Counted from the stretch's first letter, positions 1 through 9,235 are shown. The stretch is 9,235 nt of DNA from Promethearchaeota archaeon (GCA_048938295.1 JBHLMI010000048.1:1-9235); one strand, 5' to 3'. Made by a program: numbers and translations. Notes: generated by a model not told the origin, from the sequence alone.

Positions 1-31
1 ACGATCCGTTGCGGTGGACAATCACTTTTTT
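1..31 (+). repeat. Array repeat copy 1 (right arm only, truncated by window start)
   Basis: GTTGCGGTGGACAATCACTTTTTT matches the right arm of copy 4 (GTTGCGGTGGACGACCACTTTTT). Confidence 0.85.
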
Positions 32-55
32 CATGTTATTTGTGTGCGCGTTGGG

Positions 56-946
56 TTAGAGGTAGGTTTCGGGTTCTTTTCTGTCGGGGTAGCCTTTGTG
101 TAGATCGCTTTGTGATTTGAGAACGCGTTTGCTCATGACCCGTGCGCCGGTGGGACAGTTTTTGACGCAGGCACAGCACCAGATGCATGCATTATGGTCG
201 GTGGTAATCAACTGCAGGTTGTATCCGATCATGGGGGATGGATTGGATGACACATGTTGAATTCGAATTGCAGCAGTGGGGCAGACGTCTACGCACGTGC
301 CGCATTTGGTGCATTGGTCTTCATTGGTGGAGGGGGTGGCTAATGCGCCGTAGTCGTACCAGGTGAGATTGGCACGCATGGATAACGAGTACGGGGTTGT
401 ACCAGGAGGAGTGACGGGGGAGAGGTCCTCCATGGTATCGACCTGTGCATATTTGTCCCGGATTTGTTGGCCAAACGCTTTGGCTTTGGCGAGATCTTTT
501 GTGTCAGGTCGTCCATGGGCTGTAGGTACTTCAGGGACGCTAAAGGAGTGTTCGCATAGAAAAACCCCTGCAGCGATGGGTTGGAATCCCACCTCGGAGA
601 CAATGTCGCCTAGTTCATAGAGTGCGTCCTCGTAGGCGCGGTTGCCGTAGGTGACGACAATGACGACTGGGATTTTTTGTGCCCGTTTAGCTCCATAGGG
701 TTCCCTGTTACCTGTGAGTCGTCGGATCCGGTAGGCGGCTTCGGTGGGGACGCGTCCGGCGTAGACGGGCACGGAGATAATGGCGAGCTCATCGGTGAAT
801 TCCTTAAATTGCTGGGTGCGTGCACTGGGCGGAGTCAGGTCTATGTGTTCTATGGGGGCTTGGATGCCTTGGGCGATAGCTTCAGCTACCTTCCTTGAGC
901 CCCCGGTTGGAGAGAAACTGATGACTTTAACAGCTCTAATTTTCAA
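56..946 (-). CDS. Flavodoxin-domain / 2x[4Fe-4S] ferredoxin fusion protein (EFR1-like family)
   Basis: N-terminal flavodoxin-type motifs FSPTGGSRKVA, VPVYAGRVP, YGNRAYEDAL, EHS and GRPD. C-terminal CxxCxxCxxxCP motifs CTKCGTCVDVCP and CIWCCACVKNCP. TTG start with GAGGT 8 nt upstream. Confidence 0.9.
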   Translation of the reverse strand: MKIRAVKVISFSPTGGSRKVAEAIAQGIQAPIEHIDLTPPSARTQQFKEFTDELAIISVPVYAGRVPTEAAYRIRRLTGNREPYGAKRAQKIPVVIVVTYGNRAYEDALYELGDIVSEVGFQPIAAGVFLCEHSFSVPEVPTAHGRPDTKDLAKAKAFGQQIRDKYAQVDTMEDLSPVTPPGTTPYSLSMRANLTWYDYGALATPSTNEDQCTKCGTCVDVCPTAAIRIQHVSSNPSPMIGYNLQLITTDHNACIWCCACVKNCPTGARVMSKRVLKSQSDLHKGYPDRKEPETYL

Positions 947-982
947 TGGAATTTACCTCAATTGGGTTTGAATTTATTGATG

Positions 983-991
983 TTATAAAAA
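983..991 (-). promoter_or_regulatory. Archaeal-type TATA box (TTTTTATAA) for the 56..946 gene
   Basis: Reads TTTTTATAA on the minus strand, about 36 nt upstream of the start, with an SD-like GAGGT (955-959) between. Confidence 0.6.
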
Positions 992-1025
992 TCTAACATA
1001 CCTTGAGAGACGTTTTGTGCGGCAC

Positions 1026-1089
1026 GGGAGCGGGTGTATCACTCGGAAACACGGGTGTTGTCCCAGACTGGGGTGGACGCTCATTTTTT
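1026..1089 (+). repeat. Array repeat copy 2
   Basis: GGGAGCGGGTGTATCACTCGGAAACACGGGTGTTGTCCCAGACTGGGGTGGACGCTCATTTTTT. Centre contains CCCA-GAC-TGGG hairpin. Confidence 0.93.
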
Positions 1090-1208
1090 GTCTTCTAATG
1101 ATTTCGCAGTTTTCTAATATGTGCTTTTCCAGTGAAGAAGTTTTATCTGCCCTGGCTTTGTGGAATCTGTATTGAGTATTGATTTTGCATGAATTGGTGG
1201 AGTTTGTT

Positions 1209-1556
1209 ATGGCGTTGATTGATACGGCGAAAATCTTGGCGAAGGCGGGTTCCATTGTGTGTATCATTTTAGGGATTCTTGCTGGTGTGTTGAATGGTCT
1301 TGTGATGTATGAAGAGTTTAGTGGACGGCATGGTATTGCTGTTGAGACTACTCTGTGGTTTTCATTAGCGATTGTCGCGGTGGTCTTCGGGTTCATTATT
1401 CTGTTCTATTGTGTGCCGAGGATCGACCAGGATCGGCAAACAGCAGCCATTTATCTGATTATTTTTGGTGTGATAGCGGCGATTGGTTCGTTCCTTGTCG
1501 GTGGGGTGTTAATATTCGTCGCAGGAATTTTGTTGGCGGTGGAGCAAGCGCGCTAA
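1209..1556 (+). CDS. Small integral membrane protein (about 115 aa, 3-4 hydrophobic helices), function unknown
   Basis: The listed ORF 1179..1556 has a better start at ATG 1209, preceded by GGTGGAG. Long hydrophobic stretches, and it is the sole long + strand ORF between repeats 2 and 3. Confidence 0.8.
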   Translation: MALIDTAKILAKAGSIVCIILGILAGVLNGLVMYEEFSGRHGIAVETTLWFSLAIVAVVFGFIILFYCVPRIDQDRQTAAIYLIIFGVIAAIGSFLVGGVLIFVAGILLAVEQAR

Positions 1557-1700
1557 TTGAACGAAGCCTAATAACCTGATGACGTGGGCATTGAGCTCGT
1601 AAATATCCCAAGCCAATTTTGTTAACGATGTGACTTTAGCCTCCCAACTCTTCTGAGGGATTCCTTGCAATGGACAGCTTGGGAGCCTTTTGTGCGATAC

Positions 1701-1769
1701 GGGAGCGGTTGTATCACTCGGAACACAGGTCCTGTAGACTATCCGTTGGGGTGGACGACCACTTTTTTT
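1701..1769 (+). repeat. Array repeat copy 3
   Basis: GGGAGCGGTTGTATCACTCGGAACACAGGTCCTGTAGACTATCCGTTGGGGTGGACGACCACTTTTTTT. Also shares the upstream flank TTTTGTGCG..ACG (1688-1701) with copy 2 (1013-1026). Confidence 0.95.
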
Positions 1770-1817
1770 GCTAGGTTTTAGGATGGCAAGAGTAATTAGA
1801 AACTAAAGAAGAATAGG

Positions 1818-2921
1818 TTGAGTGGTGTTGGTATGGCACGTGTGGGGTTGGTGGTTTGTTTCATGGGGCTATTGTGGGTTTCGTTGATGGGGGGGCTTCC
1901 GGGGGGAATGTTCGGTGTTGGTGCGGTGGAGGCGCAGAGTGGGGGGTTCAATTTTGTGGCTTATGGGGATACGCGGTCGCATGAGCTTCCGGCGGCGGTG
2001 TCACCGGTGCATGATGGGTTGGTGGCGATGTATCTTGGAGAAAATCCGGAGTTTGTGTTGCATACAGGGGATATGGTGATGGCGGGAGGGATCTGGGATC
2101 AGTGGGTGGAGTTTAACGATTCGATTCAAGGGATTTGGGCGGCAGGAATTCCTTTCTATGGTGTGGTGGGAAACCACGAAAAATACACGGGAACTTGGTA
2201 TGTGTATGATGAGGGATTGAACAATTATACCACCTTTTTTGATTTCGGTGATGCAGTGGATGTGCCCGGTGAAACAGAATTACAGTACGCTTTCACTTAT
2301 GAGGGCGTTCATTTCGTGTTCTTGAATACCGAGGATTACTTCGACGATATGTTTGGGGGTACGCAGCAGTTTAACTGCTCAAGTGGGCAAATGAATTGGT
2401 TATCCAGTTATTTGGTGACTGTCGATCCCGAGGAGTTTCTTGTGGTAACGTTTCATCGCACCGCTTGGTCCATTCTCTTTGATCAACCAAATCGCTGGGA
2501 GGAAGCGCAAACGATTCGTGATGACTTCCATGACCTGTTTGTGCAGTACGATGTCGATTTAGTCTTAATGGGCCATGATCATTATTATTATCGCACTCTG
2601 CGGGATGGGATCTATTATGTCACGACGGGGGGTGGAGGAGGCCCACTGGCAGAAATTGATGTGACGGCTCCGATTTGGCAACCAGGTGATGTGGCCGCTT
2701 CGGAGTACCATTACTGTAACATCAAAGTGAATTCCACCGATGTCACCGTGACAGCATACACATCCGACCACAGTCTGTTAGATTCTTTCAGTATTGAAAG
2801 ACCGAGTAACCCTCTCCCTGGCCCACCCATTGAACTTCTTGTCCTGGGTCTCTGTGTCGTTACCATCATTGTCATTATCATTGTCGTTGTTTTGATCCTC
2901 TATTGGCGAAGGAAAAGCTGA
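1818..2921 (+). CDS. Secreted, C-terminally membrane-anchored metallophosphoesterase (calcineurin-like superfamily, purple-acid-phosphatase-like)
   Basis: Five metal-ligand motif blocks: YGDTRS, HTGDMV, VVGNHE, VTFHR and GHDHYY. Hydrophobic N-terminal signal, Pro-rich linker, C-terminal TM helix and WRRKS tail. The start could be ATG 1833. Confidence 0.9.
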   Translation: MSGVGMARVGLVVCFMGLLWVSLMGGLPGGMFGVGAVEAQSGGFNFVAYGDTRSHELPAAVSPVHDGLVAMYLGENPEFVLHTGDMVMAGGIWDQWVEFNDSIQGIWAAGIPFYGVVGNHEKYTGTWYVYDEGLNNYTTFFDFGDAVDVPGETELQYAFTYEGVHFVFLNTEDYFDDMFGGTQQFNCSSGQMNWLSSYLVTVDPEEFLVVTFHRTAWSILFDQPNRWEEAQTIRDDFHDLFVQYDVDLVLMGHDHYYYRTLRDGIYYVTTGGGGGPLAEIDVTAPIWQPGDVAASEYHYCNIKVNSTDVTVTAYTSDHSLLDSFSIERPSNPLPGPPIELLVLGLCVVTIIVIIIVVVLILYWRRKS

Positions 2922-2948
2922 GGCCCGATACAATTAGCGCTATTGGAA

Positions 2949-2955
2949 TTTTTTT
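2949..2955 (+). terminator. Oligo-T tract (T7) 28 nt after the phosphoesterase stop; candidate archaeal-type terminator
   Basis: TTTTTTT directly downstream of TGA 2919-2921. Confidence 0.4.
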
Positions 2956-2995
2956 GTGTCCGATGAAAATTAATTGGATGTCCTGGAGTGGCCGA

Positions 2996-3058
2996 GGGAG
3001 CTTGGGTGTATTATTCGTGACAAGTTAATTACCGGGTTGCGGTGGACGACCACTTTTT
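2996..3058 (+). repeat. Array repeat copy 4
   Basis: GGGAGCTTGGGTGTATTATTCGTGACAAGTTAATTACCGGGTTGCGGTGGACGACCACTTTTT. Both arms are conserved and the centre is divergent. Confidence 0.92.
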
Positions 3059-3074
3059 GTTGATATTTGTGGGA

Positions 3075-3254
3075 TTATGCCTGTTCTTCGATGATCCAGA
3101 GGTGGCTGGTTTTGACTGAGCTGGGGAAATCGGGACCGATCGCGGGAATGATGGTGATGAGCGTGCCTTTGAGGGTGTTGAGGAAGTCCTCCAGTTTTTG
3201 TTTGTCGTGATTCATATCGATAGGGAGTTTGTGAACTTTGTAAGTTGACACCAT
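3075..3254 (-). CDS. 59-aa hypothetical protein missed by the ORF track: MVSTYKVHKLPIDMNHDKQKLEDFLNTLKGTLITIIPAIGPDFPSSVKTSHLWIIEEQA
   Basis: Hand-translated ATG(3254) to TAA(3075), 60 codons. SD GGGTGA at 3259-3264 and TATA TTTTTATAT at 3289-3297. It fills the unit between repeats 4 and 5. Confidence 0.85.
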   Translation of the reverse strand: MVSTYKVHKLPIDMNHDKQKLEDFLNTLKGTLITIIPAIGPDFPSSVKTSHLWIIEEQA

Positions 3255-3288
3255 TTACTCACCCAAGAGGTGTATCGGAGGATTGGAC

Positions 3289-3297
3289 ATATAAAAA
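3289..3297 (-). promoter_or_regulatory. Archaeal-type TATA box (TTTTTATAT) for the 59-aa gene
   Basis: About 35 nt upstream of ATG 3254, with a GGGTGA SD in between. Confidence 0.6.
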
Positions 3298-3317
3298 CTT
3301 GGAGTAGCGTAGACAAA

Positions 3318-3380
3318 GGGAGTAGGCGTATCACTTGGAAACACGGGTGTTTTTCGATTGGTTTGTGTGGATAACCATTT
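3318..3380 (+). repeat. Array repeat copy 5
   Basis: GGGAGTAGGCGTATCACTTGGAAACACGGGTGTTTTTCGATTGGTTTGTGTGGATAACCATTT. The short T-run overlaps the methyltransferase stop codon (3379-3381). Confidence 0.9.
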
Positions 3381-4035
3381 ACTTATCATGCGAGGTGTTG
3401 CGGGCATAGAGTTTCATATGCCAGATGAAGGTTTTTTGATGGACGAGTTGTGTGAAGCCGGTGTTTTTTAGCAGCGTGTCAATTGCTTTGACGGGGTGGA
3501 TGAAGGTTCGGAAGGGGTGGCGTCGTAGCCATAGGATGAAATTTTCCCATCCGATGGAGAGCTTGCTCGTTAAATTCGTCCGCGGGATTACGATGCCAAA
3601 GAATGTGCGAGCAAGGGCGGCGGATCGTTCAACGAGGGTTTGCCAATCGTCATAGCAACAGATTACTTTATCGAGGGTGACAATGTCGGTGGGGGAGAGG
3701 GTGGAGGCGATGTCGACGAAATCCCCATGATGGTAGCTAATGCGGTCCGTATGACCTTGTCGAGTGGCTTCCTCCTTTGTCGCTTCGATATAAGCCATGG
3801 AGGCTTCCACGTTAATGCTGTGGCGTAACCCAGCTTGTAGTAATTCGTGTTGAATTATGCCGATGCCACCACCAATATCGAGTAAGGTTTTTCCCTGGAC
3901 CCCTTGGCTTTTGAGGGCATCAACGAGTAGGTGCGTGGTTTTATTCATGCCCTTCACCCGATAGGTGCGGAGTTCCGCTTCAGCTACACTCCGATCGAAG
4001 GTCGTTTCAAGTACCTGATACTGACAACAGCCCAT
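3379..4035 (-). CDS. Class I SAM-dependent methyltransferase (substrate unknown; superficially BchM-like size and layout)
   Basis: Motif I LLDIGGGIG, acidic post-motif (VEAS), HGDF, and motif IV-like DIVTLDKVICCY. N-terminal MGCC. Confidence 0.88.
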   Translation of the reverse strand: MGCCQYQVLETTFDRSVAEAELRTYRVKGMNKTTHLLVDALKSQGVQGKTLLDIGGGIGIIQHELLQAGLRHSINVEASMAYIEATKEEATRQGHTDRISYHHGDFVDIASTLSPTDIVTLDKVICCYDDWQTLVERSAALARTFFGIVIPRTNLTSKLSIGWENFILWLRRHPFRTFIHPVKAIDTLLKNTGFTQLVHQKTFIWHMKLYARNTSHDK

Positions 4036-4120
4036 GATTCATGCTTCCATCTATTTAGGATAGAATAAGGTAACGCAACAAACTAGTTAATATCTCATTT
4101 GGAAAATCTGTACGGAAAGA

Positions 4121-4190
4121 AGCCTGGGTGTATTATGGCGTAAACATGGGTGCTGCACGATGCAGTTGGGACAGACGACCATCTTTCTTT
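4121..4190 (+). repeat. Array repeat copy 6
   Basis: AGCCTGGGTGTATTATGGCGTAAACATGGGTGCTGCACGATGCAGTTGGGACAGACGACCATCTTTCTTT. Centre hairpin CTGCA-CGA-TGCAG. Confidence 0.88.
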
Positions 4191-4342
4191 CAAGATGAAT
4201 TAGTCTCATAGTTTAGAAGAATAACACCCCGGTCTTTGAAGGCGCATCTCATAGAAATGAAGTTATTAGTATCTCAACTGACATTAAGGAGTGAAATTCA
4301 GCTCTACCAAGAATAGATGGAGGCGTTCCTCTGTCACAGTTT

Positions 4343-4960
4343 ATGAATGGAGAAAGAGTGAAGCCGAATCAAGTCCCGTATTTGGTTGCGTTTTTTGCCA
4401 GAGAGTATATGCCCAAAATAAAGGCGTTTCTCGAGACGGAGTATCCGACTCGTCAAGAAGGCGTAGAGGGGTTCACAACCGTGATGCGGGCAATTTATCC
4501 GCAGGTCTATCAGTTGCAACAGCAGTTACCCGAATCCCTAGCAGAAGAGATGATTCTAGAGCTTCCTGCGTTTATTAGTCTTCATGAGTGGGAGAAAGAG
4601 CCCAGAACATGGAACAAGGGAAAGAAAAAGGCGCTCACCGCGTTTCTGGAAGGACACGAGACGCCTGCCGATGAGTACGGGAATCCTGAGTTTCTTAGTG
4701 GTATGTTTGTCTCGATTATGATGTTATTGAATTCAACCTATAAGGGGCTAATCTCGCTAAGAGGTCTTTGCAGCAACTTCGAAGATGCCGTATACACTGA
4801 ATCCTATTTTAGCTCAGTTTATCATCAGTTTGAATATGAGATTTTTGTCAAAGGGCTCCTCAAAACCCTTAGCGATCTCAGAGGAATTCTTCCGTTAATC
4901 TATGAGATTGAGCGAAAACTCGCACTGTATCCACCCACTGGGGAACTGGAAAAGATGTAG
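4343..4960 (+). CDS. Hypothetical 205-aa soluble, probably helical protein; no family recognised
   Basis: Longest ORF between repeats 6 and 7, with protein-like composition and no recognisable motif. Confidence 0.75.
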   Translation: MNGERVKPNQVPYLVAFFAREYMPKIKAFLETEYPTRQEGVEGFTTVMRAIYPQVYQLQQQLPESLAEEMILELPAFISLHEWEKEPRTWNKGKKKALTAFLEGHETPADEYGNPEFLSGMFVSIMMLLNSTYKGLISLRGLCSNFEDAVYTESYFSSVYHQFEYEIFVKGLLKTLSDLRGILPLIYEIERKLALYPPTGELEKM

Positions 4961-4993
4961 GGAAACTAGAAAAAAGTACTACCTTTCAATTAA

Positions 4994-5061
4994 AGCCTAG
5001 GATTGTATGTCTGAACAGCAGGAGTTGTAGGATCCTCTGGCATGGACGACCACTTCTTTTT
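4994..5061 (+). repeat. Array repeat copy 7
   Basis: AGCCTAGGATTGTATGTCTGAACAGCAGGAGTTGTAGGATCCTCTGGCATGGACGACCACTTCTTTTT. Right arm intact, centre contains palindrome AGGATCCT. Confidence 0.85.
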
Positions 5062-5120
5062 CCCTTCGGTATTCTCCAAGCGGGGAAGTGTTAGTATGAC
5101 AGATGTTGGGAAGGACCTCT

Positions 5121-5163
5121 GCTGCAACCTTTAAAATGCAGCTCGCCAAAAACGAGAGAAAAA
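5121..5163 (-). terminator. Candidate terminator region downstream of the DUF4256 gene
   Basis: Minus strand has two T5 tracts (5148-5152, 5159-5163) and an inverted repeat GCTGCA/TGCAGC (5121-5142). Confidence 0.35.
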
Positions 5164-5189
5164 GCGTTGAAATTCGAAAATGTCAGAGT

Positions 5190-5756
5190 TTAGACTCGTA
5201 GCGAGCCGCGGAAGGCTCTAGAGCTATAGTATGAAGGCGCACTGTTGTGATAGACGAAGACGGTGTTGTAGCGGCGATCGCAAAAGAGGGCGCCGCCGAG
5301 TTTTCTGATATCAGGAGGGGTTTTTATCCAGCTTGAGGTCTTCGCATCGAACTGTCCGAGTTTCTGTAACGCTCGATATTGATCTTCGGTTAGAAGCTCA
5401 ATGCCCATAGCGGTGGCCATATCGATTGCGTTATTTTTTGGTTTCGCTGATTTCCGTGCGTCCTGCGCTTCACGGTCGTAGCAAACATTTCTGCGGCCTG
5501 TTGGAGTTTCTGGTGAACAATCATGAAAAATGTATTCACCCGTCTTTTTATCATGACCCACAACATCTGGTTCACCGCCAGTTCGTTCCATTTCGTTGAG
5601 TGACCACAGTTTGTCAGGATTCGCTTTCAACTTTGTTTGGATGTTAGCCCATTCAATCCCTTGATGGCGGTTCATATTGTTCTCAAAGCGGGCTTTCAAC
5701 ACGCGGAGTAGTTCTTCATGTTGTTTTGGTGACAACTCCTTTTTGAGTTTGCTCAT
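5190..5756 (-). CDS. DUF4256 family protein
   Basis: Recognised by family-typical strings: LKARFENNMNRH, LWSLNEMERTGGEPDVVG, RRNVCYDREA, MGIELLTE.QYR.LQKLG.FD.KTSSW, GGALFCDRRY..VFVYHN, RAFRGSLRV. Confidence 0.9.
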   Translation of the reverse strand: MSKLKKELSPKQHEELLRVLKARFENNMNRHQGIEWANIQTKLKANPDKLWSLNEMERTGGEPDVVGHDKKTGEYIFHDCSPETPTGRRNVCYDREAQDARKSAKPKNNAIDMATAMGIELLTEDQYRALQKLGQFDAKTSSWIKTPPDIRKLGGALFCDRRYNTVFVYHNSAPSYYSSRAFRGSLRV

Positions 5757-5778
5757 ACTCTGTAGTAATCGTCCCGTG

Positions 5779-5787
5779 TTTATAAAA
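5779..5787 (-). promoter_or_regulatory. Archaeal-type TATA box (TTTTATAAA) positioned for a leaderless DUF4256 transcript
   Basis: TATA centre about 26 nt upstream of ATG 5756, with no SD motif in between. Confidence 0.65.
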
Positions 5788-5942
5788 GCATCAACGCAAG
5801 GGTGACATTGACTTTCTAGCGTATGATCATGTAAAAGATAATAGCTCTATTTTCGTCAGAAAGGCATTAAAGCATACGCTTGGAAACCAAGTTCTTCTAG
5901 AGGACCCAGTGAGGATACCAGGGGAGATGATGTGTGCTGTAA

Positions 5943-5979
5943 GGAGTCTGGGTGTATGATGGTGGAAACTCGAATGTTG
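5943..5979 (+). repeat. Array repeat copy 8 (left half recognisable; right arm degenerate or lost)
   Basis: GGAGTCTGGGTGTATGATGGTGGAAACTCGAATGTTG aligns with copy 6 (CTGGGTGTATTATGGCGTAAAC). The expected GTGGACGACCAC-T-run is not recognisable at about 5990-6005, where the next gene's stop lies. Confidence 0.7.
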
Positions 5980-6003
5980 GAAGCCAAAATTTCATATGAT
6001 GCC

Positions 6004-6822
6004 CTATTGACGGAATTTGGGGAAATGGAGTTTGCCTTCTTGTTTCAGGTAGGAAAAGATCATGAGAACAAAGAGAACAATGGTGATGCCAACAAAAATG
6101 ATGGTGGAAATAACTGAAAACAATTCAAGAGGAGGAGGGAAAAGAGGAATCTGAGGTCCTGTGACCCGGCAGTAGTTTATGTAGAGTTGGGCATCAGGTT
6201 TTCCAGGGGCTTCGATTAGCTGCCAGTGGATGCGATAGTGGTGATAGGTGGCGTTAATATTAATTAGATCATGGGTGATGGTGGTGTAGTTGGTCCAGTA
6301 ACCGGGAGTTTCATTGATGTGTGGGTGGAGGGTGAGGAGATAGGAGTGAGTACCGTTCGGGAGAGGGGTGTCTGATGTGATGCTGGCGTTGAGCCCATAA
6401 AGTAGGATGAGGGCGGACGGTCCGGTGGCGCAACTTCGAAACTGGATGGTGACTTGGTTGATGTCCAAGGGGATGAAGTCTTGCCAGAACATAATGGTGT
6501 GCTCTTGGTTTGCGCGGGTGGGTTGCAGGAACAGGGTATCAGCATCTCCACCATTTTCGGTATCATTGATGAGATGGTATTGTTCTTTGGGTCCGGTGGT
6601 ATCGCCGGTAAAATGCCAGAAGGCGGGTTTAGTTGCGTTATGATCATTACCCTCCCAGCCACCAGGTTCTGTTATGGTGAAATCCCAATTGGCTACTAAA
6701 TCAACGGGAACAGGAAGTTGCTTTGACGCCCTAGAGAGAGGAACTTGGTTAGTTATCGGCGTCAGGGAGAATATGGTCAGTAAACTAATCAGGAGTAGAC
6801 AGGTTGTGAGCGATTTTTTCAT
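6004..6822 (-). CDS. Secreted / C-terminally membrane-anchored hypothetical protein (272 aa), probably beta-rich extracellular domain
   Basis: Signal peptide MKKSLTTCLLLISLLTIFSL, several N-x-S/T sequons (NATK, NDTE, NASI, NGTH, NETP no, NYTT, NATY), PPPLEL then a TM helix and basic tail. SD GGGTGA at 6829-6834. Confidence 0.82.
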   Translation of the reverse strand: MKKSLTTCLLLISLLTIFSLTPITNQVPLSRASKQLPVPVDLVANWDFTITEPGGWEGNDHNATKPAFWHFTGDTTGPKEQYHLINDTENGGDADTLFLQPTRANQEHTIMFWQDFIPLDINQVTIQFRSCATGPSALILLYGLNASITSDTPLPNGTHSYLLTLHPHINETPGYWTNYTTITHDLININATYHHYRIHWQLIEAPGKPDAQLYINYCRVTGPQIPLFPPPLELFSVISTIIFVGITIVLFVLMIFSYLKQEGKLHFPKFRQ

Positions 6823-6975
6823 TCCTTTTCACCCGCTGGAGATGCTATTTCACCGCTGGAATGTGAGGATAAATGTTCTTTACCGGTTTAAAGAACGCAT
6901 TGGTCCTTATGTGAATATAAAGAAAAGATTGAGAAAAACCGAATACACCATTTCGTGCAGGACCCCTCAAAGATT

Positions 6976-7027
6976 GAGCCGAGAATGTCAATGACCATGA
7001 GTTGATTGGAGTTGACGACCACTTTTT
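6976..7027 (+). repeat. Array repeat copy 9 (shortened centre)
   Basis: GAGCCGAGAATGTCAATGACCATGAGTTGATTGGAGTTGACGACCACTTTTT. The right arm GACGACCACTTTTT is exact and ACCATGAGT is shared with copy 10. Confidence 0.8.
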
Positions 7028-7081
7028 GTATGCTATTTTTTAACTTGGATGTCTTATATGTGATAGGTCGACGAGGAGGCC

Positions 7082-8869
7082 TTGTGTACGTCAACTGCTG
7101 TGCTCATGAAGTTGTTGGAAACAGCGCCGTGGCGCTATGACCAGGGGATTGATTTTCTCACACTGGGTGTTGATTCGAAGCTTAAAAAACGGATTGCAGA
7201 TGAATTTATCTTTCCGTCGGATGATGTTCTTGAAATAGGGAGTGGAACGGGTTCCTTGGCGTTGTTGTGTGCCCAGAAAGGGGCGCAGGTGATGGGCATT
7301 GATGTATCACCTACAATGATTGCATTAGCTCAAACCAAAGTGGCGAAGGCCCGGTTGTCGGATCGGGTTCAGTTTCGGGAAATGGACCTGACGGAAATTG
7401 ACCAGTTGCCCGATGCCTCCTTTGATGTGGTGATTGCCACCTTGGTGTTTAGTGAATTGTCGGAGGTGGAGCAGTTTTATGCGCTCCGTGAAGCGTGGCG
7501 GCTGCTTCGCCCAGAGGGACGGCTAATCATTATGGATGAAGTTCGACCCCAATTGCTCCGCAAGATGCTTCCCTACTACATGTTACGTGTCCCTCTCACA
7601 ACATTCACTTTTCTATTGAGCCAAACAACGACCCATCGGGTGAAGAATCTCGAAACAAAGCTCGAAATATCCGGATTTCGAATTACCATGCAAGAGCAGC
7701 ATTTACTAGATTCGATTATGTTACTCGTCGCCACCAAACAACCCCAACGACCCATTGAAGCAGCAGGTCCTCGTCTGTTTCCAACGGTTCACGTTGGATC
7801 ACGAATGAAGTATGTGGCTGAAACTATTTTTCGTTGGGTAGGTGTCCCTATCACACCCGGGTATATCGCTGTGGGACAGCCCTCCGATGAAAGCCCTGTT
7901 CTAGTCACATGCAATTATGACTTGACGGTTCGCCGCGTTCTAAAAACACTTCAACACGCACAGGTTGATTGCTTTCTACTGGTAGCTCCAACTCGGGGAA
8001 TCAACGTGTGGTGTGCCTCTTGTGGTGGAGATTTTACGGCACACTCCGTTATCGCGGCAATCAAGCTTAGTGGCATTAACAACCTGGTGCAGCACCGACA
8101 TTTGTTTCTACCTCAACTGGCAGCACCGGGAGTTGACCCCGATGTGATTAAGGAGGAGACGGGATGGTCAGCACAGTTTGGACCAGTGAAAGCCAAAGAT
8201 ATACCCACCTACTTGAAGAATGGAGCACAGAAAACCGAGGCCATACGCACTGTACGATTTCCGGTGTCAAAGCGCTTAGAAATGGCAAGTCTATATGCGA
8301 TCATAATTTCACTCCTTGCAATCCCCATCAGCCTAATCTTTGCACCCCCCAAGCTCCTCACGACCCTAGGAATCATTTGGCTGCTTATCTGCGGTGCCTA
8401 TCTTCTTTCGCCATATCTCCCGAGTAGATCTGGGTTCGTGAAAACGCTGGTGTATGGCATCTGTGCCATCTCCGTTGTCCTACTTGTGGCCCTTTATACC
8501 ACGGGGAGCCTGTTAGGATTGCCATGGGAACTTCTTCTAACGATTCTTGTTTTGCTAATCTTAGGGGTTGATTTCAACGGGATGACTCCGATACTACCCA
8601 GCGACCTCGGTCGTCTACTCTATGGCCGAGGTCACTCAGAAATGCCCTTCTTCACAGGAAAGTATCCGCTTCAACCCTATGGACGAATCACCGAGGATGT
8701 GGAGTCATGTATTGGATGTGGGATGTGCGTACAAGTCTGTCCAAGGAATGTCTACCAGTTAGATAAAGCAAGACGTAAGGCGGATTTAATACACCCCAAG
8801 GACTGTGTCAACTGTAATGCTTGTGTTCATCGATGCCCCGCACATTGCCTTCACATTATCAAATCATGA
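7082..8869 (+). CDS. Fusion: class I SAM methyltransferase + HgcA/CdhD-like corrinoid-binding domain + ~4 TM helices + HgcB-like 2x[4Fe-4S] ferredoxin (HgcAB-like fusion with N-terminal methyltransferase)
   Basis: EIGSGTG motif I in a UbiE-like N-terminus. SPVLVTCNYDLT, TRGINVWCASCGGDFT and LPQLAAPGV match the corrinoid domain of the HgcA/CdhD family. A hydrophobic block follows, then CIGCGMCVQVCP (8708) and CVNCNACVHRCP (8804). The exact start (TTG 7082 vs ATG 7106) is uncertain. Confidence 0.85.
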   Translation: MCTSTAVLMKLLETAPWRYDQGIDFLTLGVDSKLKKRIADEFIFPSDDVLEIGSGTGSLALLCAQKGAQVMGIDVSPTMIALAQTKVAKARLSDRVQFREMDLTEIDQLPDASFDVVIATLVFSELSEVEQFYALREAWRLLRPEGRLIIMDEVRPQLLRKMLPYYMLRVPLTTFTFLLSQTTTHRVKNLETKLEISGFRITMQEQHLLDSIMLLVATKQPQRPIEAAGPRLFPTVHVGSRMKYVAETIFRWVGVPITPGYIAVGQPSDESPVLVTCNYDLTVRRVLKTLQHAQVDCFLLVAPTRGINVWCASCGGDFTAHSVIAAIKLSGINNLVQHRHLFLPQLAAPGVDPDVIKEETGWSAQFGPVKAKDIPTYLKNGAQKTEAIRTVRFPVSKRLEMASLYAIIISLLAIPISLIFAPPKLLTTLGIIWLLICGAYLLSPYLPSRSGFVKTLVYGICAISVVLLVALYTTGSLLGLPWELLLTILVLLILGVDFNGMTPILPSDLGRLLYGRGHSEMPFFTGKYPLQPYGRITEDVESCIGCGMCVQVCPRNVYQLDKARRKADLIHPKDCVNCNACVHRCPAHCLHIIKS

Positions 8870-8934
8870 ACGTAAAATGATGGAACCATGAGTGTTGTAG
8901 ACGAACTGTGGCGGTTGATAGCCACTTTCTTTTT
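8867..8934 (+). repeat. Array repeat copy 10
   Basis: TGAACGTAAAATGATGGAACCATGAGTGTTGTAGACGAACTGTGGCGGTTGATAGCCACTTTCTTTTT. The left end coincides with the fusion gene's TGA stop. Confidence 0.78.
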
Positions 8935-9045
8935 CAAAAAAGATTGATGGGGAGAATACGGCTGAACTCGTTGTGGTGAGCATATTAGGCAAATTATTTC
9001 TGGGGGTTGTCGTGTAGTGGGTAAAGGTAGGTGGTTGGTTCGTTG

Positions 9046-9235
9046 ATGGAGATTACGTTGGGTGTGTTGTTTTGGGGGTATGTGATGGCGTACTGTGTGC
9101 ATGTCGTCGAGGAAGCGGCTGTGGGTGAAGGGTTCATTGAGATGATGCGTACCACCTTTCATCCAGACTATACGGGTCGGATGTTCTTTGGATTTAACCT
9201 CATGATTTTTTTGGTGTTTGTCGCTGGGATTGTAG
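9046..9235 (+). CDS. HXXEE-domain membrane protein, 5' part only (runs off window)
   Basis: Hand-translated open frame MEITLGVLFWGYVMAYCVHVVEEAAVGEGFIEMMRTTFHPDYTGRMFFGFNLMIFLVFVAGIV... has HVVEE after a hydrophobic helix. In-frame TAG at 9028 bounds it upstream. Confidence 0.8.
   Translation, partial: MEITLGVLFWGYVMAYCVHVVEEAAVGEGFIEMMRTTFHPDYTGRMFFGFNLMIFLVFVAGIV

What the first reader, a model, noticed from the sequence alone, without database searches (positions are those of the whole stretch)
1181..9235. Sawtooth strand skew that resets at each repeat, independent of gene direction
Hand counts of + strand G/C per 120 nt, early vs late in a unit: 1201-1320 38/12 vs 1561-1680 25/29; 1981-2100 49/18 vs 2701-2820 21/34 (same gene); 3061-3180 45/17; 3421-3540 45/15 vs 3901-4020 31/31; 4381-4500 34/24 vs 4801-4920 21/23; 5221-5340 41/21 vs 5521-5640 21/30; 6241-6360 48/10 vs 6661-6780 35/21; 7201-7320 38/19 vs 8281-8400 19/39; 9001-9120 53/10. 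The first unit barely decays (61-300 78/47 vs 721-960 78/53). Synonymous codon endings change along the phosphoesterase gene from G/T to C. Known: single-stranded DNA accumulates C>T and A>G deamination, giving G/T-rich strands, and skew also flips at bidirectional origins. Inference: each unit has repeatedly been processed on its own from the repeat. Options are strand displacement or rolling circle exposing the + strand from its 5' end, an origin in each repeat, or + strand transcription/R-loops started at the repeat.
Basis: partly seen in the sequence, partly recalled or inferred. Interest (0 to 1): 0.88.

Follow-up and report, generated by a model that had tools for sequence, protein, structure and literature searches.

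The report
Sawtooth strand skew in archaeal cassettes
In an Asgard (Hermodarchaeia-like) archaeon, arrays of shuffled single-gene cassettes show a jump in G+T richness on one DNA strand at every cassette junction that fades over about 300-500 bases, which looks like the scar of a strand-specific event starting again and again at each junction.

Summary
All 16 hand counts are correct. In the window the jump in GC skew at the repeats beats 5000 boundary permutations (p<=0.0002). It recurs in a second array of the same genome and in 119 testable junctions from 14 of 14 related genomes: mean +0.03 before and +0.32 after the repeat, with an excess that decays with a length constant of about 315 nt.

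The skew is purely keto (C and A fall, T and G rise, purine content stays constant). It is strongest at 4-fold sites and does not depend on gene direction, unit length or repeat quality. It is absent from ordinary genes, from tRNA flanks and from actin flanks in 27 other Asgard genomes.

The repeats are cassette junctions. Gene order differs between genomes and metagenomes, with joints at the T-run. This array type starts directly after the 16S rRNA gene, and its repeat copies the 16S 3' trailer and terminator hairpin. A sister array type starts at the actin stop codon and repeats the actin tail. It is not a canonical integron.

Best reading, inferred: a strand-specific nick with strand displacement or re-synthesis starting at each junction. 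Transcription/R-loop and replication explanations remain possible.

The parts
1..32 (+). 3' part of a repeat (hairpin GGTGGACAATCAC plus T-run). Junction 0.
   Evidence: the repeat finder D1/D2; R1 17.3 bits
56..946 (-). Cassette 1 gene: flavodoxin-like plus 2x[4Fe-4S] protein, 296 aa
   Evidence: Pfam Fer4 1.6e-10, weak Flavodoxin_1
1009..1095 (+). Repeat copy (box, spacer, hairpin, T-run). Junction at about 1091.
   Evidence: R1 53.1 bits; alignment A2
1179..1556 (+). Cassette 2 gene: 125-aa hydrophobic protein, no family
   Evidence: orthologous cassette in G003 and G014
1684..1782 (+). Repeat copy. Junction at about 1769; joints 1766/1767 seen in other metagenomes.
   Evidence: R1 48.2 bits; read laying joints
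1818..2921 (+). Cassette 3 gene: metallophosphoesterase with N-terminal signal and C-terminal anchor. Steepest gradient (+0.67 to -0.17).
   Evidence: Pfam Metallophos 5.4e-14
2980..3073 (+). Repeat copy. Junction at about 3060; joint 3056->27 seen in another study.
   Evidence: R1 33.8 bits
3075..3254 (-). Cassette 4: 59-aa ORF, no family
3301..3389 (+). Repeat copy. Junction at about 3385.
   Evidence: R1 47.6 bits
3379..4035 (-). Cassette 5 gene: SAM-dependent methyltransferase, 218 aa
   Evidence: Pfam Methyltransf_11/25
4102..4193 (+). Repeat copy. Junction at about 4191.
   Evidence: R1 49.1 bits
4343..4960 (+). Cassette 6 gene: 205 aa, no family; weak gradient
5019..5066 (+). Partial repeat (hairpin plus T-run only). 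Junction at about 5060.
   Evidence: R1 14.7 bits, E 0.017; D1 75%
5190..5756 (-). Cassette 7 gene: DUF4256 protein; weak gradient
   Evidence: Pfam 2.1e-90
5926..6011 (+). Weak, uncertain repeat copy. Junction at about 5990.
   Evidence: R1 12.6 bits, E 0.069; D5 78% to 4106-4145
6004..6822 (-). Cassette 8 gene: 272-aa protein with N-terminal signal-like end, no family. + strand skew up to +0.66 across its 3' half.
7006..7029 (+). Hairpin plus T-run part of a repeat. Junction at about 7029.
   Evidence: D1 88%
7082..8869 (+). Cassette 9 gene: methyltransferase, CdhD-like (HgcA-like) domain, membrane segments and 2x[4Fe-4S] fused in one protein, 595 aa
   Evidence: Pfam
8909..8932 (+). Hairpin plus T-run part of a repeat. 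Junction at about 8932.
   Evidence: D1 71%; terminator-like site
9031..9234 (+). Cassette 10 ORF, open at the contig end. Skew +0.68 at 9001-9120.

Best explanation
SHOWN. The window is part of a cassette array of an Asgard (Hermodarchaeia-like) archaeon. It holds about 10 mostly single-gene cassettes, with genes on either strand. Each cassette ends in a same-sense 50-140 nt repeat whose constant part is a G.T-tolerant GC hairpin followed by a T-run.

[quoted passage not shown] A sister array type in the same genomes begins at the actin stop codon and repeats the last 16 actin codons plus a hairpin and T-run.

Cassette order differs among genomes, and the joints fall at the T-run. Exactly at that junction the + strand becomes poor in C and A and rich in T and G. 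The excess decays with a length constant of about 315 nt toward a plateau of about +0.08.

INFERRED. The gradient is a mutation pressure: excess C>T and A>G on the + strand. It arises because the first few hundred bases of the + strand downstream of each junction are repeatedly single-stranded, or repeatedly re-synthesised. The most likely start is a strand-specific nick made at the junction by the still unidentified machinery that recombines the cassettes. The free 3' end is extended and the old + strand is displaced or replaced over a short, processivity-limited tract. Deamination of the displaced strand, or G.T-type misincorporation into the new strand, both give the observed keto skew.
For: Anchoring:
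- Mean skew is +0.03 in the 300 nt before the repeat and +0.32 after it, in 119 junctions. 91% of steps are positive, and 14 of 14 genomes have a positive mean.
- At 25-nt resolution, C falls from 0.20-0.23 to 0.10-0.13 immediately after the T-run.
- Fit: skew = 0.083 + 0.364*exp(-d/315 nt).

Mutational nature:
- The keto fraction falls from 0.68 to 0.55 with distance while purine content stays at 0.50-0.53.
- + strand skew at 4-fold sites runs from +0.56 to -0.09 in + genes and from +0.67 to +0.35 in - genes. The genome background is -/+0.22.
- 4-fold divergence between orthologous cassettes is flat at 0.33-0.38. Inferred per-base C>T and A>G rates are about 2.3-fold higher near the junction.
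- G-runs are no more frequent than composition predicts, and there is no dinucleotide context.

Independence from genes:
- The step is +0.31 when the next gene is on +, +0.29 when it is on -, and +0.33 when both neighbours are on -.
- The step is the same for repeats that keep only the hairpin and T-run (+0.26, n=29).
- The decay length is the same for short, medium and long units.

Specific to cassette junctions:
- There is no step after tRNA genes.
- There is no step after the actin gene in 27 Asgard genomes of other genera.
- Ordinary genes are flat.

The junction is the recombination point:
- Joints 3056->27, 1767->9044, 1766->3024 and 3056->7089 are seen in contigs of other sediment metagenomes.
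- Cassettes are shared in different orders among genomes.
- Similarity between orthologous cassettes begins right after the junction.

Strand polarity of the site: the hairpin is 93.5% paired, with many G.U/G.T pairs that work only on the + strand.
Against: - No nick, single-stranded DNA, circle or enzyme has been observed.
- No integron integrase, Y1 or Y2 HUH transposase, viral Rep or reverse transcriptase was found. The controls for Y2_Tnp and Viral_Rep were silent, so those two searches are uninformative.
- The rate estimates assume compositional stationarity, so they are partly circular.
- Gene calls are longest-ORF heuristics. Junctions of related genomes are not independent, because cassettes are orthologous.
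- The first cassette after the 16S in G000 and G006 shows little gradient, as do window units 6 and 7.
- A 21-kb core-gene contig (C62) has an orientation-independent skew of -0.16 without any repeats. The array-wide plateau may therefore have another cause, possibly replicative.
Confidence: 0.42

Rival explanations
1. Transcription or R-loops. Each repeat releases or passes + sense transcripts, either from a cryptic promoter in or just after the repeat or by read-through of the terminator-like hairpin. The non-template + strand is exposed in R-loops and deaminated, with a decay set by where polymerases stop.
For: - The arrays lie directly downstream of, and in the same sense as, two of the most highly expressed genes: the 16S rRNA gene and actin.
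- The repeat ends in a terminator-like hairpin plus T-run on the + strand.
- The sign of the skew (G and T rich on the non-template strand) fits transcription-associated deamination.
- The first 25 nt after the junction are 49% T.
Against: - The step is as large where both neighbouring genes are on the - strand (+0.33, n=23).
- Repeats reduced to hairpin plus T-run behave the same, so a promoter in the box is not needed.
- There is no step after tRNA genes in this genome or after actin terminators in 27 genomes without cassettes.
- Read-through from the anchor gene predicts drops, not rises, at successive terminators.
- There is no G clustering beyond composition.
- No archaeal promoter motif was identified. 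This was judged by eye only, because the scan tool covers sigma-70 promoters only.
Confidence: 0.2
2. Replication-linked exposure. The + strand is the lagging-strand template. The repeats (hairpin or T-run) act as preferred priming sites or barriers, so that the stretch just 3' of each repeat is filled in last. Alternatively, each repeat is a weak unidirectional initiation site.
For: - An array-wide plateau of + strand G/T excess remains far from junctions: +0.08 overall and about +0.2 in long units.
- Another contig (C62) has a strong orientation-independent skew without repeats. Regional strand effects therefore exist in this genome.
Against: - Polymerase stalling at a hairpin on the template would expose the side 5' of the hairpin on the + strand (the left side), not the observed 3' side. 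This is reasoning, not a test.
- Archaeal Okazaki fragments are about 100-150 nt (general knowledge), which is shorter than the gradient.
- Bidirectional origins would give sign flips, not a sawtooth of one sign.
- No origin proteins or ORB-like motifs were sought or seen.
Confidence: 0.14
3. Selection. A G/T-rich, C-poor leader on the + strand is needed at the start of each cassette, for example to stop read-through or as a recombination enhancer, and is maintained even at synonymous sites.
For: The pattern is conserved in 14 of 14 genomes and across unrelated genes.
Against: - 4-fold divergence between orthologous cassettes is not lower near the junction (0.33-0.36 against 0.34-0.37).
- There is no motif, G-run or G4 enrichment.
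- Purine content is constant, that is, only transitions are involved.
- The decay is smooth and exponential rather than a bounded element.
Confidence: 0.06
4. By-product of protein composition, codon usage or foreign origin of the cassettes (signal peptides, Pro-rich tails, horizontally acquired genes).
For: Several + genes start with hydrophobic, G/T-rich signal or membrane segments (window 1179-, 1818-, 9031-).
Against: - The gradient is stronger at 4-fold sites than at codon positions 1+2 (+0.65 against +0.26 in the first bin).
- It is present in non-coding DNA.
- It has the same sign for genes on either strand.
- It is absent from 2000 ordinary genes.
Confidence: 0.02

Closest known systems
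Integron cassette arrays and CALINs, including the archaeal ones of Ghaly et al. 2022 (PMC9668308)
   Same: Arrays of mostly single-gene cassettes, each ending in a conserved recombination-type repeat. Order is shuffled among strains. The array starts at one fixed chromosomal site. Repeats are more alike within an array type than between types. Recombination in integrons is strand-specific (bottom strand of attC). Asgard archaea were reported as enriched in such arrays, and two Hermodarchaeia genomes are listed with small attC clusters.
   Different: No IntI was found (best 87 bits against a cut-off of 265). The repeats do not fold as one long imperfect palindrome. Genes lie on both strands in equal numbers (159:145) and - strand genes appear to have their own promoters. 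The repeat is a duplicate of the anchor gene's 3' end. No sawtooth skew has been described for integrons in the papers I found. I could not check whether the attC sites listed for Hermodarchaeia are these repeats.
Tandem accretion of site-specifically integrated elements at the 3' end of a gene (att duplications, as at tRNA genes); in Asgard, HeimM2/HeimV2 inserted just after the only 16S rRNA gene of Heimdallarchaeum (Wu et al. 2022, PMC8813620)
   Same: The direct repeats are copies of the 3' end of the target gene, and the first copy is the gene's own end (16S trailer; actin tail). The site after the 16S gene is a known insertion spot in another Asgard lineage.
   Different: The units are 0.3-3 kb cargo genes without an integrase, replication genes or virus genes. 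There are up to 12 or more units in a row. No integrase lies near the arrays.
Deamination gradients on the strand left single during strand-displacement replication (vertebrate mtDNA, PMC8565317; chloroplast DNA, PMC2695485)
   Same: Excess C>T and A>G on one strand, strongest at 4-fold sites, falling monotonically with distance from a fixed start. The skew is keto rather than purine.
   Different: Here the gradient restarts about every kilobase at each cassette junction inside a chromosome. Its length constant is about 315 nt rather than spanning a replicon. Single-strandedness is inferred, not shown.
R-loop-associated GC skew downstream of promoters and terminators in eukaryotes, and promoter-anchored somatic hypermutation (reviewed in PMC10030826; otherwise my own knowledge)
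   Same: A sharp 5' boundary followed by decay over hundreds of bases, with G excess on one strand.
   Different: No transcript start is known here. The skew is independent of neighbouring gene direction. There is no G clustering and no hotspot context.
Rolling-circle elements (RCR plasmids, IS91/ISCR, Helitrons)
   Same: One-strand polarity, a hairpin close to the 3' end of each unit, and a predicted exposure of the displaced strand from its 5' end.
   Different: No HUH protein was found (two of these searches had silent controls). The gradient does not scale with unit length.

Membership tests
Integron / CALIN | IntI-type tyrosine recombinase next to the array | tested here: not met
   TIGR02249 best match is 87 bits (cut-off 265), on another contig. 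There is one Xer-like 313-315 aa recombinase per genome, never on array contigs. Contigs are fragmented, so absence is not proven.
Integron / CALIN | attC: imperfect palindrome that folds as one hairpin with paired R''/L'' and L'/R' boxes | tested here: not met
   ssDNA folds of four repeat copies on both strands give z-scores of +0.6 to -1.9. Only a 4-7 bp terminal hairpin is stable. RNAalifold finds 5 pairs.
Integron / CALIN | Cassette ORFs mostly co-oriented and promoterless | tested here: not met
   5 + and 5 - genes in the window. 159 + and 145 - ORFs in 37 array loci.
Integron / CALIN | Array of short cassettes separated by a conserved repeat, with order varying between strains | tested here: met
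   (joints at the T-run).
att-duplication arrays from site-specific integration at a gene's 3' end | The repeats are copies of the 3' end of the target gene, and the first copy is the gene's own end | tested here: met
   Window type: the first copy abuts the 16S 3' end in G000:C48, G014:C26 and G006:C71. The second copy in C48 keeps the last 8 nt of the 16S. Sister type: the first copy is the actin C-terminus in four genomes.
att-duplication arrays from site-specific integration at a gene's 3' end | An integrase encoded in or beside the integrated units | tested here: not met
   Not found in the arrays or their flanks. No viral contig carries the actin-type site.
ssDNA deamination gradient (mtDNA type) | Strand-specific excess of C>T and A>G, strongest at 4-fold sites, graded with distance from a fixed start | tested here: met
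ssDNA deamination gradient (mtDNA type) | The graded strand is demonstrably single-stranded for a graded time | not testable with these tools
   Needs ssDNA or nick mapping. Only DNA contigs of sediment metagenomes were available.
R-loop type GC skew | The skewed strand is the non-template strand of a transcript that starts at the boundary | tested here: inconclusive
   No RNA data. The step is unchanged where both neighbours are - strand genes. Negative controls at tRNA and actin terminators.
R-loop type GC skew | G clusters at the initiation zone | tested here: not met
   Runs of three or more G occur at or below shuffled expectation (z from -2.5 to +1.1). G4 motifs occur at 0.2 per kb or less.
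Rolling-circle (HUH) elements | HUH nuclease (Y1 or Y2 transposase, Rep) | tested here: inconclusive
   PF01797 is absent in 5 genomes, with working controls. PF04986 and PF02407 are absent in 15 genomes, but their controls did not respond either.

The most novel reading that the evidence does not exclude
Hermodarchaeia carry a previously undescribed gene-capture system. Cassettes are stacked behind the 16S rRNA gene and behind the actin gene, using duplicated 3' ends of those genes as recombination sites. They are mobilised through a single-strand intermediate started by a site-specific nick at each junction (rolling-circle-like or integron-like, but with unrelated sites and an unknown enzyme). 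The sawtooth keto skew would be the evolutionary footprint of that nick-and-displace step. It could then be used as a sequence-only detector of such strand-specific processing sites in other genomes.
Probability: 0.25. Interest if true: 0.9.

Novelty: new variant of a known kind. Interest (0 to 1): 0.8.

Why it matters
A mutational gradient that restarts at every cassette junction records a strand-specific DNA transaction at a defined site, in organisms that cannot yet be handled genetically. It tells where and on which strand to look for a nick, a flap or an R-loop, and it turns 'how do these arrays move?' into a testable question.

It also shows that in one Asgard lineage the 3' ends of the 16S rRNA and actin genes anchor dynamic arrays of accessory genes. 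This bears on how Asgard archaea take up foreign genes.

Practically, such arrays distort codon usage and skew-based origin prediction, and they break assemblies next to the 16S gene.

Tried and rejected
- Rfam: no family in the window except a chance snoRNA-like match below threshold.
- Integron reading: rejected as membership, because there is no IntI, no attC fold and mixed gene orientation.
- Small-RNA gene reading of the repeat: hairpin 1 is only 73% paired, with two pairs broken in more than half of the copies. Repeats without the box give the same step.
- 16S leader/trailer processing-stem (BHB) idea: duplexfold gave -93.8 against shuffled -84.9 +/- 6.1, which is not convincing. Dropped.
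- 419-aa PD-(D/E)XK-like protein (first cassette after the 16S) as the array's enzyme: found in only 4 of 41 genomes searched, all 4 within the 19-genome family that includes G000. Genome contigs gave nothing.
- Second tyrosine recombinase region on C33: no repeats and no skew pattern.
- HUH families and reverse transcriptase: not found.
- Common origin of the two repeat types: a model built only from actin-type repeats finds nothing in the window or in the 16S-adjacent loci. My earlier idea that the window's repeats derive from the actin tail is withdrawn. They share only the layout and a short GGGNGCNGGNGT core.
- G-quadruplex or G-run selection and deaminase hotspot context: no signal.
- DUF4256 cassette as a recent transfer explaining its weak gradient: the family is simply very conserved, with thousands of proteins at about 80% identity. 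No conclusion.
- Viral contigs: no copy of the actin-type site.
- RNA evidence: no RNA holder listed for this stretch.
- Contigs of other runs leave parts of the window uncovered. No inference was drawn from that.


Full report
CHECK OF THE OBSERVATION

The window is a complete 9235-nt contig (C31) of a 2.5-Mb, 66-contig metagenome-assembled genome. Its overall GC skew is +0.183, while most contigs lie within +/-0.07.

I cut the contig at the 3' ends of the ten repeat copies. Each unit then starts at +0.25 to +0.67 and falls to about zero or below within 450-600 nt. Units 6 and 7 are weak. The pooled difference between the 300 nt after and the 300 nt before a repeat is +0.248. None of 5000 circular shifts of the boundaries reached it, and p=0.0002 for random positions.

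At 4-fold degenerate sites the gradient is larger than at codon positions 1+2 (+0.65 to -0.13 per 200-nt bin, against +0.26 to -0.03). About 2000 ordinary ORFs of the same genome show a flat coding-strand 4-fold skew of about -0.22 from start to stop.

WHAT THE REPEATS ARE

The repeat has three parts: a box (...GGGAGCGGGTGTATCACTCGGAAACACGGGTG...), a spacer, and a GC hairpin followed by a T-run. All copies are in the same sense.

A covariance model (R1) finds the family in arrays in 12 of 14 other genomes of the genus and 1 of 4 genomes of the sister genus. Within each locus all copies point the same way. An RpoA1 fragment places the organism among the Asgard archaea, closest to MAGs labelled Hermodarchaeota (95-85% identity).

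In three genomes the first copy of the window's repeat type lies directly after the 3' end of the 16S rRNA gene, in the same sense: G000:C48, G014:C26 and G006:C71. In C48 the second copy even retains the last 8 nt of the 16S plus the trailer hairpin.

A second repeat type, on contig C18 of the same genome and in most relatives, starts at the stop codon of the actin gene.
- Its box reads K-E-Y-M-E-Q-G-A-G-V-I-H-R-C-F-stop.
- Its first copy is the real actin C-terminus in four genomes.
- Outside the family, R1 hits only the single actin gene end.
- Among internal copies of this type, the variable columns are the third codon positions of the actin frame.

A model built from the actin type alone does not detect the window's type. 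I therefore treat the two as parallel constructions, each array repeating the 3' end of its own anchor gene. They share the layout, a short GGGNGCNGGNGT core and the hairpin plus T-run.

The hairpin is 93.5% paired across 62 copies, with compensatory changes and many G.U/G.T pairs. It therefore only works in + polarity. The first hairpin I suspected in the box is not supported. The repeats do not fold like attC sites.

THE REPEATS ARE CASSETTE JUNCTIONS

The units carry unrelated genes. In the window these include:
- a flavodoxin/ferredoxin-like protein;
- a metallophosphoesterase;
- two methyltransferases, one of them fused to a CdhD/HgcA-like domain and ferredoxin;
- a DUF4256 protein;
- several proteins without a family.

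The same cassettes occur in other genomes at 72-93% identity, in other orders and next to other neighbours. Contigs from other sediment metagenomes join the end of cassette 3 to the start of cassette 1 (3056->27, with 255 nt on the shorter side). Others join 1767->9044, 1766->3024 and 3056->7089. All joints lie at the T-run that ends the repeat.

Genes lie on both strands in equal numbers (159:145).

No integron integrase, other array-linked tyrosine recombinase, Y1 transposase or reverse transcriptase was found. Searches for Y2 transposases and viral Rep were uninformative because their controls were silent. The distal flanks hold ordinary metabolic genes.

GENERALITY AND ANATOMY OF THE SAWTOOTH

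- The second array of the same genome (C18, opposite contig orientation) shows the same step (+0.278, p<=0.0006).
- 65 units from ten other genomes, and then 52 further units, reproduce it.
- Over 119 testable junctions in 14 genomes, the mean skew is +0.03 before and +0.32 after the repeat. 91% of steps are positive, and every genome has a positive mean.
- At 25-nt resolution the change is abrupt at the end of the T-run. C drops from 0.20-0.23 to 0.10-0.13, G rises to 0.32, T rises to 0.36-0.49 and A falls to 0.17-0.21. The values then relax smoothly.
- An exponential fit gives a plateau of 0.083, an amplitude of 0.364 and a length constant of 315 +/- 45 nt.
- The decay length is the same for units shorter than 800 nt, 800-1500 nt and longer than 1500 nt.
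- Purine content stays at 0.50-0.53 while the keto fraction falls from 0.68 to 0.55. The change therefore consists of C-to-T and A-to-G exchanges on the + strand.
- The step is +0.31 when the following gene is on the + strand, +0.29 when it is on the - strand, and +0.33 when both neighbours are on the - strand.
- The step does not depend on the repeat's score or on whether the box is present.

MUTATION OR SELECTION

- + strand skew at 4-fold sites runs from +0.56 to -0.09 in + genes and from +0.67 to +0.35 in - genes. The genome backgrounds are -0.22 and +0.22.
- Between 37 orthologous cassette pairs, 4-fold divergence is flat with distance (0.33-0.38). There is therefore no sign of extra constraint near the junction.
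- Under stationarity, the per-base C>T and A>G rates are about 2.3 times higher in the first 150 nt than beyond 900 nt, while G>A and T>C are not. That estimate uses composition and is partly circular.
- G-runs are not more frequent than composition predicts, G4 motifs are rare, and there is no dinucleotide context effect.

I conclude that the sawtooth is a strand-specific mutation pressure and not a selected sequence feature.

WHAT STARTS AT THE JUNCTION

The controls speak against simple read-through from strongly expressed genes. There is no step after tRNA genes of this genome. There is none after the actin gene in 27 Asgard genomes of other genera, which have similar T-rich terminators but no second copy of the tail within 1.5 kb.

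Cassette genes' own transcription cannot be the cause, because - / - junctions behave the same.

Double-strand breaks with 5'-3' resection would expose the other strand on the downstream side, and so predict the opposite sign. Polymerase stalling at the hairpin would expose the upstream side. Both points are reasoning only.

What remains fits a + strand-specific nick at the junction, whose 3' end is extended for a few hundred bases. The displaced old + strand would deaminate (C>T, A>G). Alternatively, the newly made + strand would collect G.T-type misincorporations. Either route gives a keto skew of the observed sign and a decay length limited by processivity.

The event sits exactly at the point where cassettes are joined, and the site's hairpin has + polarity. 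I therefore link it to the unknown cassette recombination machinery. This step is inferred; no nick, flap, circle or enzyme has been seen.

R-loops from cryptic + sense transcripts and replication-linked exposure remain possible. A replicative or regional effect may well explain the array-wide plateau. A 21-kb contig of core genes (C62) has an orientation-independent skew of -0.16 without any repeats.

COMPARISON WITH WHAT IS KNOWN

The arrays work like integrons or CALINs, which were reported as enriched in Asgard archaea. Two Hermodarchaeia genomes are listed there with 2-attC clusters. They nevertheless fail three defining features of integrons: IntI, the attC fold and co-oriented promoterless ORFs.

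They also resemble tandem accretion at the 3' end of a target gene. The site after the 16S gene is a known insertion spot in Heimdallarchaeum. Here, however, the units are bare cargo genes.

The gradient works like the deamination gradients of mitochondrial and chloroplast DNA. It differs in restarting about every kilobase inside a chromosome. I found no description of such a per-cassette sawtooth.

LIMITS

- The genomes are fragmented MAGs.
- Genes were called as longest ORFs.
- Junctions in related genomes are partly orthologous, so they are not independent. The per-genome sign test (14 of 14, p=1.2e-4) is the conservative figure.
- No RNA or raw-read data were available.

Noticed in passing
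G000 contig C18 (L005:11400-11834, - strand) and L022:2903-4048: A second array type starts at the stop codon of the actin gene. Its repeat is the last 16 actin codons (KEYMEQGAGVIHRCF*) plus a hairpin and T-run. Internal copies vary mainly at third codon positions of that frame, as if they were kept translatable.
   Followed up: yes
L004 (G000:C48) 1-1448; L037 (G006:C71) 619-4212: The 16S rRNA gene carries large insertions. 1478 model positions span 3594 nt in G006, and there is an insertion of about 100 nt close to the 3' end in G000. These are presumably rRNA introns.
   Followed up: no
L004:1603-2862 (- strand): The first cassette after the 16S in G000 and G006 encodes a 419-aa protein with a PD...ExK-like motif and weak structural likeness to PD-(D/E)XK nucleases. 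It is flanked by about 140-nt direct repeats that include the last 8 nt of the 16S. It occurs in only 4 of 41 genomes searched (all 4 within the 19-genome family that includes G000), and its cassette has little skew gradient.
   Followed up: partly
window 5237-5852: The DUF4256 cassette recruits about 15 times more contig depth than its neighbours in four metagenomes. It has thousands of homologues at about 80% amino-acid identity, in archaea among others, so the family is unusually conserved.
   Followed up: partly
G000 contig C62 (L008:1-20000): A 21-kb stretch of core genes (Spt5, ribosomal proteins L10 and S19, glycosyltransferases) has a strand-wide skew of -0.16 that does not follow gene direction. 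One - strand gene has a 4-fold coding skew of +0.73. No repeats were detected.
   Followed up: partly
window 7082-8869: One ORF fuses a SAM methyltransferase, a CdhD/HgcA-like corrinoid domain, membrane segments and a 2x[4Fe-4S] ferredoxin. It is an HgcAB-like fusion with an added methyltransferase.
   Followed up: no
L025:6810-7298 and L025:6042-6599 (G010:C32): Right after the last detected repeat of one array lie a NYN-domain nuclease gene and an Ssb-like OB-fold (ssDNA-binding) gene.
   Followed up: no
G013, several small contigs: One genome of the genus has nine reverse-transcriptase matches while the other 14 have none. This may reflect retroelements or contamination of that bin.
   Followed up: no
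L183 (SMTZ1_10036074) and 11 other JGI metagenome contigs: Actin-type arrays also occur on contigs from other sediment metagenomes. In L183 one unit (2780-4037) shows a textbook sawtooth (+0.71 falling to -0.07), while the first unit after actin does not.
   Followed up: partly
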